Below, piece after piece: positions 5,087-8,906 of a stretch of DNA of 40,665 nt. Every line of letters begins with the position of its first letter. The stretch's first letter is position 1. Source of the stretch: a virus. Lineage: Duplodnaviria > Heunggongvirae > Uroviricota > Caudoviricetes. Where the stretch lies: IMG/VR virus record IMGVR_UViG_2687453300_000007. One strand, given 5' to 3'. The notes beneath the pieces are model-generated. The model was not told the origin of the DNA. It searched no databases and was given only the letters and a program-made list of their open reading frames with translations. The position numbers and the translations under genes were made by a program.

Positions 5087-5408
5087 GAAACCAGAGCATG
5101 CACACACAAAAAAACCGCTTGCCATGCCGCAATCAGTCAGGTTACATTTCCGCTGCACCTCATAAAACGGGTGCCGGGTTTCGCAGCCTGCTGACTACAC
5201 AAGCGCACAACCGCGCCAGCGGTTTTTTTGTGCGTACTGTATTGCCACGTTTTTTTCGCGTCAGAATTATGGCGGGGCGTACGGGGCCGACTTCGGTCGG
5301 GCCGGGTTCTTGTGTAGCCGGTACTGCGAACCTCGTACGTCTCGCCACCCACAGTTTCGCAGCTCTGGATGGTGAGTTTTCACAACTTACTACACAAGGG
5401 GCCACACC

Positions 5409-5639
5409 ATGGCAAACCGCAAACAGCACCGCGCTATCGCGGAGCGTCGTCACATCCAGACTGAAATCAACCGCAGACTTTCCCGCGCATCACGCGTCGC
5501 GCAAATCATGCACATCAATATGCTGCATGAGCGCAGCCACGCACTATCAAACATTTATTCCGCCTCTGTTTTCAGCTATCTGGCGGATGATCTGCACGAG
5601 CTTCAACAGCTCATCCAGCAGCAAAACAAACTCCATTAA
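5409..5639 (+). CDS. Hypothetical early protein (76 aa)
   Basis: Track ORF immediately downstream of the structured non-coding stretch. Confidence 0.4.
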   Translation: MANRKQHRAIAERRHIQTEINRRLSRASRVAQIMHINMLHERSHALSNIYSASVFSYLADDLHELQQLIQQQNKLH

Positions 5640-5711
5640 TTCCTGTTCCGGGCCTTTCCTGCACCTTGCGGCGGGAGGCCTTCGCACATCTGTAACAAGA
5701 GGATTGCCGCA

Positions 5712-6077
5712 ATGATTCTCGCCAACGACTTTCTTGAATACCTGCTCAATACAGAACGTGATCTTGCCGCTCGCGTGCGTGATCGTTATGACATGTACCT
5801 GAAATCCCTGCCTGTACCGCAGCTCGCTGACGGAAAGATTGTTATTGATGGTCGCTACATGATTGACAGCCACGAGGGAAATTACAGGCTTTACCGCATT
5901 GAAGGTGGCACCCCGTCCGTTATTGGCATTTACCAGCGCCCATCCTCTGCAATCGTCGATGTGATTGCCGACAGCATCCGCATCACACATCGCCATGCCG
6001 ACACAGAAGACACCGTGCTGGAAATTCAGCGGCTGGCTACAGTCTGCCGCGACACCCTGAATGGCATGACGAAGTAA
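5712..6077 (+). CDS. Hypothetical early protein (121 aa)
   Basis: ATG 5712 preceded by AAGAGGA; directly upstream of gene A. Confidence 0.5.
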   Translation: MILANDFLEYLLNTERDLAARVRDRYDMYLKSLPVPQLADGKIVIDGRYMIDSHEGNYRLYRIEGGTPSVIGIYQRPSSAIVDVIADSIRITHRHADTEDTVLEIQRLATVCRDTLNGMTK

Positions 6078-6083
6078 ATCACT

Positions 6084-8906
6084 ATGACGGCAGAGTACCT
6101 CAGGGACTGGCAACAACCGCGCCACGCAGTGGGGCGTGAAGGAACGGGGATCCCCGCTCCTGAATCCGCGCTTTCCTCCTGGCTGGATGCCTACCGGGCA
6201 GAGAACGAGCGCCGCCAGGAAATGGCTGATGCGGCGTTCTCAGCCACGCCGCTGGGCAACCTGATTAATAAAAGCCTGGACGCACAGGAAAAACAGGACA
6301 AAACCATCACACTGGCAGGAGACGCCAGAAAACAGGCACGTGGCGCGGTGGATGAAGCCATGGCCTCGCTGCGCCTGCTGCCGTCCTATCTGCGCGATCC
6401 GCTTATTCGCCACCTCTCCTTCCTGCGCAAAAAACAGGAAGCCGATCGCCGGAAAGGCAAAAAGAGCTGGCAGGCGGAACGCTATGCACGCGGAACCCTG
6501 CGCAAAATATTCGAACGTCTGGATAGCACTGACGGACGCTGGCTGACACCGGGTTATCGCTCCCTTGCCGGACGCGAACGCCTGGACGATTTGCTTTACC
6601 TGCCGCAGCTCAACAAACACCAGATACAGACGCTGGCCACCATGACGGCGGCGATGTTCAGCAGCACCTTCGAAAAACTCTGCGATGGCTTTGGCGCGAC
6701 CGATGGCGAGCTGACCATGGATGTAACCCTGAAGGCGTATCAGATGCTGGCCCGCATGGCGTTACACCTGCACGCCATGCCTCCACATTATGACGCACTG
6801 ACAACAGACAAAGACCGGAGGAACGAACCGGACACGGAGCTGCTGCCGGGCGCAATCCTTCGCCTGACCTGTGCGGAATGGTGGAAACGCAAACTGTGGC
6901 TGTTACGTTGCGAGTGGAGAGAAGAACAACTCCGCGCCGCCTGTCTGGTTTCCAGAAAAACATCACCCTATCTGAGCCAGGACGCGTTAAGCGAGTTTCG
7001 CGCACAGCGCGAGAAAACACGCGATTTCCTGAAAAGTTTCATGCTGGAAAATGAAGACGGGTTCACGATTGATCTCGAGACAGTGTATTACGCGGGAGTA
7101 AGTAACCCGGTTCACCGTAAGGCAGAAATGATGGCCACCATGAAGGGACTGGAACTTCTGGCCGAAGCCCGTGGCGACAAAGCGGTGTTTCTGACTGTCA
7201 CCTGCCCGTCAAAATACCACGCCACAACGGAGAACGGTCATCCGAATCCCAAATGGAACGGGGCCACAATGCGCGACTCCAGCGATTACCTGGTTAACAC
7301 GTTTTTTGCGGCGGTCCGCAAAAAACTGAACCGCGACGGCCTGCGCTGGTATGGCATCCGCACGGTGGAGCCTCATCATGACGGCACCGTGCACTGGCAT
7401 ATGATGGTCTTTGCACATCCGGAAGAAATCGACACCATTGTGTCCCATACCCGCGATATTGCCATTCAGGAAGACCGCCACGAGCTGGGCAATGATATTA
7501 CTCCGCGCTTTAAGGTGGAGTATGTCGACGGCTCAAAAGGCACGCCAACCAGCTACATCGCCACCTACATCGGAAAGAACCTGGACAGCCGCGCCGTGGA
7601 TGGCATCGACCCGAAAACGGGCAAGCCACGCGTGGACCACGAAACCGGAAAATCAATGGCCGAGAGCGTGGAGCGCGCCATCGGCTGGGCGCGCCTTCAC
7701 CGGGTCCGTCAGTTCCAGTTCTTTGGCATCCCCTCCCGTCAGGTGTGGCGTGAACTGCGCCGCCTTGCCAGCCAGATGGCACGCAATCCGGAAGGCCCGC
7801 AACGGCTGAAAGATGATGCAATGGATGCGGTACTCGCTGCCGCCGATGCCGGGTGTTTTGCCACCTACATTGAAAAACAGGGTGGCGTGCTTGTTCCACG
7901 CAAGGACTACCTGATTCGCACCGCCTACGACCTCGCAGATGAGCTGAACGATTACGGCGAACAGAGCGTACAGATTTACGGGATCTGGTCACCACTCATC
8001 GGGGAATCCTCCCGTGTGTGCACGCATCCGGATAACTGGAAGCTGGTAAGACGTAAACCGGAAGCGGAAGACAGCGCCCGCGAAAATGGTTTTGACCTTC
8101 AGGGCGGCCCTGCCGCCCCTTGGACTCGTGGCAATAACTGTCCCCGTGTACAGGAAACGGACAACAACGGGACAGAACAGCCGGAAGAACGGCCAGCACC
8201 GTGGCCGCAGCTCCCTGACGGCGTTGAAGTGAACGAATGGATGCGCTCACTGAAACGACACGAACGCCGGGCGCTGATGCGTTCGCTTCGTGACAAACAG
8301 GCAAAAAACAGCAGCGATGAAATGCAGAGCTGGACACAGAGCCGCAAACAGCAGCGGCCTTTGCCTGATAACCACGAATTACTCGCTAAAGAATGGCGGG
8401 AGTCTGCTGAATCTCTCGGCCTGCATATCGGTGAACAACAGATGCAGCACCTGTTACGGGGCGGCAGTCTGTACGTTGACGGCAGCATCATTGCACCGCA
8501 GGGATTTGAAATTGTACGCAAACCGGATACCCGCCCGGACAGCCGAATCACGCAGCTCTGGCAGCGCCTGAGCCGTAATCATGGCGTAAGCAGCACGGAG
8601 ATCCGCCATAACCCGGTCGCCAGCTATCTGGCACAGCTGGGGGCATCAGACCCTGAAGCCGCCGCACGCCTGGCATCCACACTTCAGCAGGGCCAGAACA
8701 CCATGAAAACACCCGTTACCGTGCTTTCTGACATGCTGCGCGCCATCCGCGACGCAGAGCACGCACAGAGAATCAGTGAAACCACTGAACGCGCCAGCCG
8801 CAAAGCAGACCTGCTGCGGGGTGGCCTGACCAGTGGAAACAAAAAACAGACAGAAACGGGACTTACGAATCCCGTAAATGAGCAAAAAACGCGCAGCGAT
8901 ATATGA
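6084..8906 (+). CDS. A: Rolling-circle replication initiation endonuclease (P2 gpA-like)
   Basis: 940-aa ORF carrying the HUH-type motif region …TVEPHHDGTVHWHMMVF… and tyrosine-bearing segment …YIATYIGKN… typical of P2 A-family proteins. Confidence 0.9.
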   Translation: MTAEYLRDWQQPRHAVGREGTGIPAPESALSSWLDAYRAENERRQEMADAAFSATPLGNLINKSLDAQEKQDKTITLAGDARKQARGAVDEAMASLRLLPSYLRDPLIRHLSFLRKKQEADRRKGKKSWQAERYARGTLRKIFERLDSTDGRWLTPGYRSLAGRERLDDLLYLPQLNKHQIQTLATMTAAMFSSTFEKLCDGFGATDGELTMDVTLKAYQMLARMALHLHAMPPHYDALTTDKDRRNEPDTELLPGAILRLTCAEWWKRKLWLLRCEWREEQLRAACLVSRKTSPYLSQDALSEFRAQREKTRDFLKSFMLENEDGFTIDLETVYYAGVSNPVHRKAEMMATMKGLELLAEARGDKAVFLTVTCPSKYHATTENGHPNPKWNGATMRDSSDYLVNTFFAAVRKKLNRDGLRWYGIRTVEPHHDGTVHWHMMVFAHPEEIDTIVSHTRDIAIQEDRHELGNDITPRFKVEYVDGSKGTPTSYIATYIGKNLDSRAVDGIDPKTGKPRVDHETGKSMAESVERAIGWARLHRVRQFQFFGIPSRQVWRELRRLASQMARNPEGPQRLKDDAMDAVLAAADAGCFATYIEKQGGVLVPRKDYLIRTAYDLADELNDYGEQSVQIYGIWSPLIGESSRVCTHPDNWKLVRRKPEAEDSARENGFDLQGGPAAPWTRGNNCPRVQETDNNGTEQPEERPAPWPQLPDGVEVNEWMRSLKRHERRALMRSLRDKQAKNSSDEMQSWTQSRKQQRPLPDNHELLAKEWRESAESLGLHIGEQQMQHLLRGGSLYVDGSIIAPQGFEIVRKPDTRPDSRITQLWQRLSRNHGVSSTEIRHNPVASYLAQLGASDPEAAARLASTLQQGQNTMKTPVTVLSDMLRAIRDAEHAQRISETTERASRKADLLRGGLTSGNKKQTETGLTNPVNEQKTRSDI

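What the first reader, a model, noticed from the sequence alone, without database searches (positions are those of the whole stretch)
5090..5408. About 300-bp non-coding, GC-rich structured stretch in the early operon, bracketed by imperfect direct repeats
Between the 99-aa and 76-aa early ORFs no frame is convincingly coding. The stretch contains a 15-bp inverted repeat pair (CACAAAAAAACCGCT at 5103..5117 and AGCGGTTTTTTTGTG at 5220..5234), a small terminator-like hairpin with a U-run (about 5212..5232), and a GC stem capped by a UUCG-type loop (GGCCGAC-TTCG-GTCGGGCC, about 5285..5303). It is bracketed by direct repeats GTTTCGCAGC … ACTACACAAG, with the 10-mer ACTACACAAG exact at 5195..5204 and 5389..5398. 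This could be a structured sRNA, a replication or packaging-associated site, or the footprint of a small inserted element.
Basis: seen in the sequence. Interest (0 to 1): 0.4.

Follow-up and report, generated by a model that had tools for sequence, protein, structure and literature searches.

The report
Phage antisense-RNA immunity switch (IsrK–C4)
The "structured non-coding stretch" is a well-known kind of phage RNA switch: a small antisense RNA (C4), a decoy-like leader RNA (IsrK) and two matching target sites, which most likely keep an anti-repressor gene of this P2-like prophage switched off. It is an ordinary, though unannotated, member of a known family.

Summary
The sequence features are real; three coordinates are off by 1-2 nt. 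Rfam finds two families at full length and above threshold: isrK (5155-5229, 65 bits) and C4 antisense RNA (5265-5352, 83 bits). The "direct repeats" are the a1/b1 and a2/b2 target sites of C4. TTCGCAG and CTACACAAG are exactly complementary to the C4 3' junction (CTGCGAA) and hairpin loop (CTTGTGTAG). b2 overlaps the Shine-Dalgarno of the 76-aa ORF, a homologue of the P4 epsilon anti-repressor.

Across 16 phages (P1, P4, lambdoid/Stx, P2-like) with 13 specificity types, loop, junction and both target pairs co-vary (0 of 100,000 permutations reach the cognate score). The site caller reproduces the annotated P1 sites. The region is non-coding: the 205-aa ORF, called "Ash family" in some records, shows no codon-position signal.

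So this is a P1 immI / P4 CI-type antisense RNA module inside the early operon of a P2-like (Xuanwuvirus) prophage. It occurs in about 24% of complete E. coli genomes.

The one unexplained part is the 15-bp inverted repeat. It is found only in the P2-like lineage, is invariant there, and is predicted to mask the isrK terminator only in transcripts that start upstream. It may be a promoter-dependent antiterminator.

Verdict: known kind, new member, low interest.

The parts
5105..5119 (+). 5' arm of the 15-bp exact inverted repeat (CACAAAAAAACCGCT). It lies just upstream of the -35 of the module promoter. It is a candidate antiterminator strand, and its A-tract is a possible UP element.
   Evidence: Searches give the exact match; exceeds all 500 shuffles; present at 14-15 of 15 positions at the same place in all six P2-like modules and absent from lambdoid and P4 modules; 0 of 15 columns vary in 10 relatives; predicted to pair with the terminator 3' half.
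5119..5148 (+). Sigma-70 promoter-like site (TTGCCA, 18-nt spacer, TACATT) placed to start transcription at about 5155. It is the positional equivalent of P1 P51b (P1c4).
   Evidence: 9 of 12 consensus match. In alignment A1 the start of the isrK model lines up just downstream of the annotated -10 of P1 promoter P1c4. Promoter activity was not tested.
5155..5229 (+). IsrK-like leader RNA (equivalent to the P4 seqA region and P1 c4-a1b1). It has hairpin 1 (5155-5174), hairpin 2 with a1 in its loop (5175-5190), a single-stranded b1, and an intrinsic terminator.
   Evidence: Rfam RF01394, 65.2 bits (gathering 50), full length 1-77; predicted fold; helices supported in 16 sequences.
5180..5186 (+). 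a1 target site, TTCGCAG, complementary to a' of C4.
   Evidence: (I11).
5195..5203 (+). b1 target site, CTACACAAG, complementary to b' of C4.
   Evidence: (I14).
5209..5232 (+). Intrinsic terminator of the IsrK-like RNA (stem 5209-5214 / 5219-5224, U7 at 5223-5229). Positions 5218-5232 are the 3' arm of the inverted repeat.
   Evidence: 0 of 21 columns (5209-5229) vary in 10 relatives.
5271..5349 (+). Predicted mature C4-type antisense RNA (79 nt). It has a 17-bp closing stem, hairpin 1 with a UUCG loop (5287-5300) and hairpin 2 (5301-5322). The Rfam hit spans 5265-5352.
   Evidence: RF01695, 83.2 bits (gathering 45), full length. MFE -47.6 kcal/mol, z = -3.95; 99.1% of cells paired and 14 of 27 pairs with compensatory changes. 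The ends are inferred from the annotated P1 C4 misc_RNA.
5309..5317 (+). b' determinant, CTTGTGTAG, in the loop of hairpin 2. It pairs with b1 and b2.
   Evidence: (I14, I16).
5324..5330 (+). a' determinant, CTGCGAA, in the single-stranded 3' junction of C4. It pairs with a1 and a2.
   Evidence: (I11, I17).
5356..5362 (+). a2 target site, TTCGCAG, a few nt after the C4 3' end.
   Evidence: Same relative position as the annotated a2 of P1.
5390..5401 (+). b2 target site, CTACACAAG (5390-5398), overlapping the Shine-Dalgarno AAGGGG (5396-5401) of the 76-aa ORF. b2 ends 10 nt before the ATG.
   Evidence: the 10-nt spacing between the b2 match and the ATG is constant in 15 of the 16 phages, including P1 and P4. 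The exception, Stx2_131990, has only a partial 6-nt b2 match.
5409..5639 (+). 76-aa ORF, a homologue of the P4 epsilon helper-derepression (anti-repressor) protein. It is the presumed regulated gene.
   Evidence: Pfam PF25738 Derepression, 32.7 bits (cut-off 27); 29% identity to P4 epsilon, E = 4e-9; coding signature (third-position variation 37 against 19 and 18).
5712..8906 (+). Downstream genes of the same operon: orf121 (5712-6077) and replication gene A (6084-8906). They could be subject to polarity if translation of the 76-aa ORF is blocked.
   Evidence: PF05840 Phage_GPA, 437 bits. Polarity is an inference from P1 and P4, not tested here.

Best explanation
The stretch is an IsrK-C4 antisense-RNA immunity module of the P1/P7 immI and P4 CI type. 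It sits inside the early operon of a P2-like (Xuanwuvirus/P88-like) prophage.

Shown here:
- A ~79-nt, tRNA-acceptor-like C4 RNA gene (about 5271-5349) carries two exposed specificity determinants: hairpin loop b' (CUUGUGUAG) and 3' junction a' (CUGCGAA).
- Exact complements of both occur twice on the same strand. The upstream pair (a1, b1) lies in a 75-nt IsrK-like leader that has a promoter-like site just upstream and an intrinsic terminator. The downstream pair (a2, b2) lies in the leader of the next gene.
- b2 overlaps the ribosome-binding site of a 76-aa homologue of the P4 epsilon anti-repressor.

Inferred from P1/P7, P4 and Gifsy-1:
- C4 is cut out of the primary transcript (by RNase P at its 5' end) and accumulates in the lysogen.
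- It pairs with a2/b2 of the same kind of transcript and blocks translation of the epsilon-like gene. This also promotes premature termination before orf121 and replication gene A.
- The short terminated IsrK-like RNA, which carries a1/b1, competes for the same C4 determinants. It can therefore tune or relieve repression.
- The determinants differ completely between otherwise near-identical relatives, so each variant is a separate immunity specificity.
For: 1. Rfam hits at full length, well above gathering scores: C4 83.2 against 45, isrK 65.2 against 50. These are the only two hits in the 40.7-kb window.
2. C4 fold: z = -3.95. On 13 homologues the Rfam structure gives 99.1% paired cells and 14 of 27 pairs with compensatory changes, with both controls failing.
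3. Exact complementarity of a' and b' to both repeat pairs.
4. The same site-finding procedure returns exactly the a1, b1, a2 and b2 coordinates annotated in the P1 GenBank record.
5. Covariation of all sites across 16 phages and 13 specificity types. The cognate complementarity sum is 395, reached by 0 of 100,000 permutations. The a1/b1-to-a'/b' pairs scored on alignment A1 give a covariation score of 0.777 against 0.203 in shuffles (0 of 500) and at most 0.19 when slid.
6. Among ten P2-like modules, 50-70% of columns vary in the six determinant sites, against 14% in the 5' strand of the C4 stem and 0% in the terminator.
7. b2 ends 10 nt before the ATG in 15 of the 16 phages and overlaps the SD.
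8. The downstream ORF is epsilon-like. The prophage repressor is a P2 C homologue at 35% identity, and P2 C is the known target class of P4 epsilon (PMC2669165).
9. The same isrK-then-C4 order is found in all 15 comparison loci. P4 hits both families; P1 has the related c4-a1b1 family (RF03163) in place of isrK.
10. Literature: the IsrK/C4 = seqA/CI equivalence and its spread in P4, P1, P7, N15 and lambdoid phages (PMC3632133); the IsrK mechanism in Gifsy-1 (PMC4825925); C4 as an RNase P substrate (PMC2190699).
Against: - There are no expression data for this locus. Promoter use, processing and the direction of regulation are inferred by homology.
- The two experimental paradigms differ. In P1 and P4 the C4/CI RNA represses. 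In Gifsy-1 the emphasis is on IsrK activating translation through an ORF (orf45) that overlaps the C4-like region.
- The window has an ATG at the C4 5' edge (5269) in an open frame, so some translation through C4 cannot be excluded.
- The downstream gene is not icd/ant as in P1, and no kil/eta ORF intervenes as in P4.
- That the epsilon-like protein binds this phage's own repressor is untested.
Confidence: 0.85

Rival explanations
1. Gifsy-1-type activator circuit as the main function. The short IsrK-like RNA (5155-5229) acts in trans on the read-through isrK-C4-epsilon mRNA. It pairs through a1/b1 with the C4 portion, opens an inactive fold, and so activates translation of the anti-repressor. 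The C4 portion would be mainly an autoinhibitory mRNA structure rather than a free repressor RNA.
For: - Shown experimentally for the homologous Salmonella Gifsy-1 locus (PMC4825925).
- The a1/b1-to-a'/b' complementarity co-varies strongly.
- The isrK model matches at full length, terminator included.
- An ATG sits at the C4 5' edge, as for orf45.
- An alternative helix between the C4 3' strand and a segment between a2 and b2 is conserved, with compensatory changes.
Against: - a2/b2 co-vary with C4 just as tightly, and b2 covers the SD. That is the repressor geometry established for P1/P7 and P4.
- The orf45-like frame here is 148 aa, overlaps epsilon out of frame, shows no coding signature and is frameshifted in E. 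albertii. Translational coupling as in Gifsy-1 is therefore unlikely.
- The two readings are compatible rather than exclusive.
Confidence: 0.3
2. The stretch encodes a protein: the 205-aa ORF at 5098-5715, annotated in some genomes as 'Ash family protein'.
For: - The ORF is open across the region.
- It hits Pfam PF10554 Phage_ASH at exactly the gathering score, 26.0 bits, and several PHROGs at E of about 1e-15.
- PGAP annotates it as a CDS in some E. coli genomes.
- The frame is open in 5 of 6 close relatives, and its stop overlaps the next start codon.
Against: - Variable columns are spread evenly over codon positions, 30/31/32.
- In the part that overlaps epsilon, only 9% of codon differences are synonymous, against 46% in the epsilon frame.
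- Variation clusters in RNA pairing determinants and is compensatory at the RNA level.
- E. albertii carries a frameshift.
- The family traces to the old P4 'cI ORF', which lies over the CI RNA gene.
Confidence: 0.03
3. Footprint of a small inserted element, or a replication or packaging site, with the direct repeats as target-site duplications or protein-binding iterons.
For: - The repeats flank a compact structured segment.
- Homology with P88 begins abruptly at 5105, so the module behaves as a cassette.
- In every phage type examined the module lies upstream of replication genes.
Against: - The repeats co-vary with the loop and junction of the RNA between them in 13 specificity types. Target-site duplications or iterons would not.
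- Both halves of the region match curated RNA families.
- No recombinase or transposase is associated with it.
- P2-type ori lies inside gene A, and cos lies elsewhere.
Confidence: 0.02

Closest known systems
Bacteriophage P4 immunity region (P_LE - seqA - CI RNA/seqB - seqC - kil/eta - epsilon - orf151 - alpha)
   Same: - The P4 CI RNA matches the same Rfam C4 model (74.9 bits), and its upstream seqA region matches isrK (60.8 bits).
- The determinants have the same layout (GTGAGAA / TTCACAGG), with b2 over the SD.
- An epsilon homologue lies downstream in the same operon, followed by the replication gene.
- An RNA cut out of the transcript regulates the rest of that transcript.
   Different: - Here epsilon follows b2 directly, with no kil/eta ORF in between.
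- IsrK and C4 are 35 nt apart instead of about 108 nt.
- The host element is a complete P2-type helper phage (C/Cox switch, gpA replicase), not a satellite.
- The P2-like lineage adds the 15-bp arm complementary to the terminator, which P4 lacks.
Bacteriophage P1/P7 immI operon (P51 - a1 b1 - c4 - a2 b2 - icd - ant1/ant2)
   Same: - C4 RNA family (P1 scores 68.8 bits).
- a1/b1 and a2/b2 are in the same order and at the same relative positions. The site caller used here reproduces the P1 annotation exactly.
- b2 lies at the RBS of a small first ORF (73 aa in P1, 76 aa here).
- The regulated product is an anti-repressor.
- Specificity varies between close relatives, as between P1 and P7.
   Different: - The 76-aa ORF has no similarity to Icd, and there is no Ant1/2 homologue.
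- The upstream element here matches isrK (with a terminator) rather than c4-a1b1, RF03163.
- No operator-like sequence shared with the prophage switch region was found, whereas P1 has the C1 operator Op51.
Salmonella Gifsy-1 isrK-orf45(STnc1160)-anrP locus and the equivalent modules of lambdoid/Stx phages
   Same: - The same two Rfam families in the same order.
- An embedded position in the early operon, upstream of replication genes.
- Experimental evidence that IsrK terminates or reads through, and that a ~80-nt RNA is processed from the read-through transcript (PMC4825925).
   Different: - The regulated gene there is a large Ant/Rha-type anti-repressor, reached through a short translated orf45.
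- Here it is a small epsilon-type protein whose own SD is the b2 target.
- The P2-like module has the extra upstream arm.

Membership tests
C4 antisense RNA (Rfam RF01695; P1/P7 C4, P4 CI) | Covariance-model score at or above the gathering threshold over the full model | tested here: met
   83.2 bits against 45, model positions 1-87 of 87, E = 4.7e-15.
C4 antisense RNA (Rfam RF01695; P1/P7 C4, P4 CI) | Long closing stem enclosing two hairpins, supported by compensatory changes | tested here: met
   99.1% of cells paired; 14 of 27 pairs changed on both sides; 0 of 500 shuffles reach the score; slid controls at most 0.083. Fold z = -3.95.
C4 antisense RNA (Rfam RF01695; P1/P7 C4, P4 CI) | Loop and junction determinants complementary to sites both upstream and downstream on the same strand, with the downstream site at the RBS of the next gene | tested here: met
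   Exact 7-nt and 9-nt complements at 5180-5186, 5195-5203, 5356-5362 and 5390-5398. b2 overlaps the SD. Cognate specificity: 0 of 100,000 permutations.
C4 antisense RNA (Rfam RF01695; P1/P7 C4, P4 CI) | Processed from a longer transcript (RNase P at the 5' end) and represses translation and transcription of downstream genes | not testable with these tools
   Requires Northern blot, RNA-seq and reporter assays. The acceptor-like stem and 3' CCACC are present.
isrK Hfq-binding RNA (Rfam RF01394) / P4 seqA region | Covariance-model score at or above gathering; two 5' hairpins plus an intrinsic terminator | tested here: met
   65.2 bits against 50, full length. Terminator at 5209-5224 plus U7. 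Helices hold in 16 sequences.
isrK Hfq-binding RNA (Rfam RF01394) / P4 seqA region | Own promoter immediately upstream, giving a primary transcript | tested here: inconclusive
   Consensus-type site TTGCCA-18-TACATT at 5119-5148, correctly spaced for a start at 5155. No transcript data.
isrK Hfq-binding RNA (Rfam RF01394) / P4 seqA region | Binds Hfq | not testable with these tools
   Would need co-immunoprecipitation.
P1/P7 immI operon | icd and ant1/ant2 genes downstream of c4 | tested here: not met
   No alignment between the 76-aa ORF and P1 Icd. The ORF is PF25738 (epsilon-like), and the next ORFs are orf121 and gpA.
P4-type immunity/derepression operon | Epsilon (derepression protein) encoded downstream of the CI-type RNA in the same operon | tested here: met
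   PF25738 at 32.7 bits against 27. 29% identity to P4 epsilon, E = 4e-9.
P4-type immunity/derepression operon | kil/eta ORF starting at seqC, between the CI RNA and epsilon; satellite gene set (alpha primase, sid, delta, psu) | tested here: not met
   The epsilon ATG follows b2 directly. The replicase is P2 gpA-type (PF05840). The repressor is P2 C-like.
Ash protein family (Pfam PF10554) | A translated protein under purifying selection | tested here: not met
   The HMM score only equals the cut-off (26.0). Codon-position spread is 30/31/32. Synonymous fraction is 9%. Frameshift in L019.
tRNA / tmRNA | Cloverleaf detected by ARAGORN | tested here: not met
   No gene found in the window.

The most novel reading that the evidence does not exclude
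The 15-bp inverted repeat may be a lineage-specific, promoter-dependent antiterminator.

- Transcripts that start at the upstream early promoter Pe contain the 5' arm (5105-5119). This arm is predicted to sequester the 3' half and U-tract of the isrK terminator, so they read on into C4, epsilon and replication gene A.
- Transcripts that start at the module's own promoter (about 5155) lack the arm and terminate as short IsrK RNA.

This would explain how a P4-type, terminator-containing RNA immunity cassette can sit inside the essential early/replication operon of a P2-type phage, which has no N/Q-type antitermination. A variant of the same idea is that the 21-bp helix is an RNase III processing site.

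Support: found only in the P2-like lineage, at 14-15 of 15 positions in all six P2-like loci scanned; the arm itself is present and invariant in all 10 aligned modules, while neighbouring segments vary by 23-30%; equilibrium P(terminator) is 0.82-0.85 without the arm and 0.00-0.08 with it.
Probability: 0.3. Interest if true: 0.45.

Novelty: new member of a known kind. Interest (0 to 1): 0.22.

Why it matters
Practically, this assigns a function to a gap left unannotated in the RefSeq record examined, or mis-annotated elsewhere as an "Ash family protein". The module is present in roughly a quarter of complete E. coli genomes (1282 of 5426).

It also gives a concrete, testable control circuit for the epsilon-like anti-repressor of P2-like prophages. 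That gene has been suggested as the reason why the P2-like prophage Sp13 of O157 Sakai is unexpectedly inducible by mitomycin C (PMC2669165).

The many interchangeable a/b determinants among near-identical prophages are a neat natural example of RNA-encoded immunity specificities.

None of this changes the known picture of IsrK/C4 systems. Only the terminator-masking arm would add a new mechanistic detail, if it proves real.

Tried and rejected
- tRNA/tmRNA scan: nothing found, despite the acceptor-like stem.
- Protein-coding reading of the 205-aa ORF / Ash family: rejected on substitution patterns and a frameshift in a relative.
- P1 Icd homology of the 76-aa ORF: none.
- orf121 against P4 orf151 and P2 Orf83: no significant similarity. 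There is only a sub-threshold DUF5405 hint.
- Operator-like words shared between the C/Cox switch region (1400-1515) and the module promoter: none of 7 nt or longer. There is therefore no evidence that the prophage repressor controls the module.
- Minus-strand terminator reading of the 5' arm: inspection of the sequence by eye shows only a 4-bp stem, so it was rejected.
- The genome-contig search with the 76-aa protein gave only 3 loci, too few and too similar to test covariation of the inverted repeat. Four further E. coli variants also had invariant arms.
- Full alignment A1 could not be used for a formal a2/b2 column count, because spacer lengths shift these sites between lineages. A position-free permutation test was used instead.
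- Sabbattini et al. 1995 (PMC176756) could not be retrieved. P4 mechanism statements rest on PMC4825925, PMC3632133 and general knowledge.

Full report
**Observation.**
- The exact 15-bp inverted repeat lies at 5105-5119 / 5218-5232. It extends to 21 nt at 90% complementarity.
- The terminator-like hairpin is 5209-5224, followed by T7.
- The UUCG-capped stem is 5285-5303.
- GTTTCGCAGC occurs at 5178-5187 and 5354-5363.
- ACTACACAAG occurs at 5194-5203 and 5389-5398.
- The inverted repeat exceeds anything seen in 500 dinucleotide shuffles (maximum 12 nt). A single 10-mer direct repeat does not: 24% of shuffles reach 10 nt or more.
- GC content is only slightly raised overall (55.5% against 52%), but it is 70% in the C4 core.

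**Identity.** An Rfam scan of the whole 40.7-kb window returns exactly two hits, and both lie inside the finding.
- isrK (RF01394): 5155-5229, 65.2 bits against a gathering score of 50.
- C4 antisense RNA (RF01695): 5265-5352, 83.2 bits against 45.
- Both hits are full length and on the + strand.
- The terminator hairpin is the 3' end of the IsrK-like RNA. The UUCG stem is the first internal hairpin of C4.
- ARAGORN finds no tRNA.
- C4 folds into the Rfam structure with z = -3.95.
- On 13 homologues that structure has 99.1% paired cells and 14 of 27 pairs with changes on both sides. Shuffled and slid controls fall far below.

**The direct repeats are RNA target sites.**
- The C4 hairpin-2 loop contains CTTGTGTAG (5309-5317). 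The single-stranded 3' junction contains CTGCGAA (5324-5330).
- These are the exact complements of CTACACAAG and TTCGCAG, the cores of the two repeat pairs (I11, I14, I16, I17).
- I fetched 15 other loci: P88 and Shae_phiSM (P2-like), eleven lambdoid/Stx phages, P1 and P4.
- Every locus has C4 preceded by isrK, or by c4-a1b1 in P1.
- The same procedure that finds the sites in the window returns, for P1, exactly the a1, b1, a2 and b2 coordinates annotated in its GenBank record.
- The 16 modules contain 13 different determinant combinations.
- Cognate C4/target complementarity sums to 395, which no permutation out of 100,000 reaches.
- Scored as long-range pairs on an ordinary MAFFT alignment, a1/b1 with a'/b' give 14 of 18 pairs with double-sided changes. 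The covariation score is 0.777 against 0.203 in shuffles (0 of 500) and at most 0.19 when slid.
- The b2 match ends 10 nt before the start codon in 15 of the 16 phages and overlaps the Shine-Dalgarno. The exception, Stx2_131990, has only a partial 6-nt match.
- In the window, b2 is 5390-5398, the SD (AAGGGG) is 5396-5401, and the ATG is at 5409.

**Regulated gene and context.**
- The 76-aa ORF (5409-5639) belongs to Pfam PF25738, "Derepression".
- It aligns to the P4 epsilon helper-derepression protein at 29% identity, E = 4e-9. It has no similarity to P1 Icd.
- It is the true coding frame. Third-position variation is 37 columns against 19 and 18. Synonymous codon differences are 46%, against 9-13% in the other two frames.
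- The element is a P2-type prophage: integrase, a C repressor 35% identical to P2 C, Cox, early genes, then gpA.
- The region is 100% identical to Escherichia phages vB_EcoM-569R5 and 705R2, and about 97% identical to Xuanwuvirus P884B11. It is 93% identical to P88 over the part they share.
- P2 itself lacks the module.
- The module plus epsilon occurs in 1282 of 5426 complete E. coli genomes. In the RefSeq record I examined the RNA genes are not annotated.
- Asadulghani et al. noted a P4 epsilon-like gene in the P2-like prophage Sp13 of O157 Sakai. They suggested it might explain that prophage's unexpected mitomycin C inducibility (PMC2669165).
- Barquist et al. had already equated IsrK/C4 with the P4 seqA/CI RNA. 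They also noted the system in P1, P7, N15 and lambdoid prophages (PMC3632133).

**Non-coding status.**
- A 205-aa ORF (5098-5715) spans the stretch.
- It hits Pfam Phage_ASH at exactly the cut-off (26.0 bits) and several PHROGs. PGAP sometimes annotates it as "ash family protein".
- In ten P2-like modules, substitutions fall evenly on codon positions, 30/31/32.
- They cluster in the six pairing determinants (50-70% of columns), against 14% in the 5' strand of the C4 stem.
- E. albertii has a frameshift in this ORF.
- The Ash family appears to be the translation of an RNA gene. It descends from the old P4 "cI ORF", which overlies the CI RNA.

**Mechanism.** The anatomy and the covariation are shown here. 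The following steps are inferred from P1/P7, P4 and Gifsy-1.
- Transcription starts either at the module's own promoter-like site (TTGCCA-18-TACATT, 5119-5148) or upstream at Pe.
- The transcript either stops at the isrK terminator, giving a short RNA that carries a1/b1, or it reads through.
- C4 is excised from read-through RNA. C4 is a documented RNase P substrate (PMC2190699).
- C4 pairs with a2/b2, occludes the epsilon RBS and, by loss of translation, promotes termination before orf121 and gene A.
- The IsrK-like RNA competes for the same determinants. In Gifsy-1, IsrK supplied in trans activates anti-repressor translation (PMC4825925).
- Each determinant combination is a separate immunity specificity. 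Relatives whose module is 86-89% identical to the window's (P88 87%, Shae_phiSM 86.5%, E. coli variants 86-89%), and whose other module positions are largely shared, have entirely different a and b sequences.

**The inverted repeat.** This is the only part that the known model does not explain.
- Its 3' arm is the 3' half plus U-tract of the isrK terminator. Its 5' arm lies just upstream of the -35, so it is transcribed only from upstream promoters.
- The 5' arm marks the left edge of homology with P88.
- It is present at 14-15 of 15 positions, at the same place, in all six P2-like modules scanned. In lambdoid and P4 modules the best match is at background level, 8-10 of 15.
- The arm sequence is present in all ten aligned modules. 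Both arms are invariant there, while the adjacent promoter and spacer vary by 23-30%.
- Equilibrium folding gives P(terminator stem) of 0.82-0.85 for transcripts starting at 5155.
- It gives 0.00-0.08 for transcripts starting at least 50 nt upstream, even when the RNA is cut at 5224. The 5098-5240 fold has z = -4.6.
- This fits a promoter-dependent antiterminator that lets Pe transcripts reach gene A.
- However, there is no covariation to test it, kinetics may favour the local hairpin, and the A-tract could simply be an UP element. I rate the idea at about 0.3.

**Verdict.** This is a known kind of system (IsrK-C4 / P4 CI / P1 immI antisense immunity), detected by standard Rfam models. The window holds a previously undescribed but common member, linked to an epsilon-type anti-repressor in P2-like prophages. 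Interest is low. The terminator-masking arm is a modest lead.

Noticed in passing
window 5098-5715; L001 4312-4572; L021 414-1031: Several protein annotations sit on the translation of the isrK-C4 RNA genes: Pfam PF10554 (Phage_ASH), PHROGs 995/6928/821 ('transcriptional regulator/repressor') and PGAP 'ash family protein'. In this lineage that frame has no coding signature. In L021 the 'ash' CDS even replaces the real epsilon-like gene. These protein families probably derive from an RNA gene (the old P4 'cI ORF').
   Followed up: partly
L009 1146-2297; L008 1141-2286; L010 1141-2292; L011 1147-2304; L004 1458-2120: Lambdoid/Stx phage records annotate long 'antirepressor', 'peptidase' or 'Rha' CDSs that run straight through isrK and C4. 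The ATG 10 nt after b2/SD, used in L013 and L014, is the likely true start. The N-terminal ~200 aa of these proteins are probably artefacts.
   Followed up: partly
window 5341-5347 with 5370-5376: The 3' strand of the C4 closing stem (CTCGCCA) is complementary to a conserved segment between a2 and b2 (TGGTGAG). The pairing is kept by compensatory changes in PhiR12_3 (CCACCGC/GCGGTGG) and P4 (GCTATCGCC/GGCGATAGC). This alternative helix of the unprocessed mRNA excludes the C4 fold and would place a2 in a hairpin loop.
   Followed up: partly
window 5713-5715 / 5712-5714: The stop codon of the non-coding-looking 205-aa frame overlaps the ATG of orf121 (ATGA). The arrangement is kept in 5 of 6 close relatives. 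It may be coincidence, or a hint of translational coupling.
   Followed up: no
window 5242-5270: A second sigma-70-like site (TTGCCA-17-AATTAT) lies between the isrK terminator and C4. Its -35 is TCGCCA in P88 and Shae_phiSM, so it is probably weak or fortuitous. The P2-like lineage has a spacer about 10 nt longer here than lambdoid modules.
   Followed up: no
L020 (NZ_JBQPOM010000071.1, labelled Vagococcus sp.): A contig assigned to a Gram-positive Vagococcus genome carries an enterobacterial P2-like isrK-C4-epsilon module. The epsilon protein is 89% identical to the window's. This is likely contamination or a mislabelled assembly.
   Followed up: no
window 6084-8906 and comparison loci L004-L016: In every phage type examined the IsrK-C4 module lies upstream of the replication gene(s) in the same transcription direction: gpA here, O-type genes in lambdoid phages, kilA-repL in P1, alpha in P4. 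This suggests that control of replication-gene read-through is a shared function.
   Followed up: no
window 8983 onward (L001 8197-8934): In the identical phage record, a ParM-like plasmid segregation gene follows replication gene A. This is unusual cargo for a P2-like prophage.
   Followed up: no
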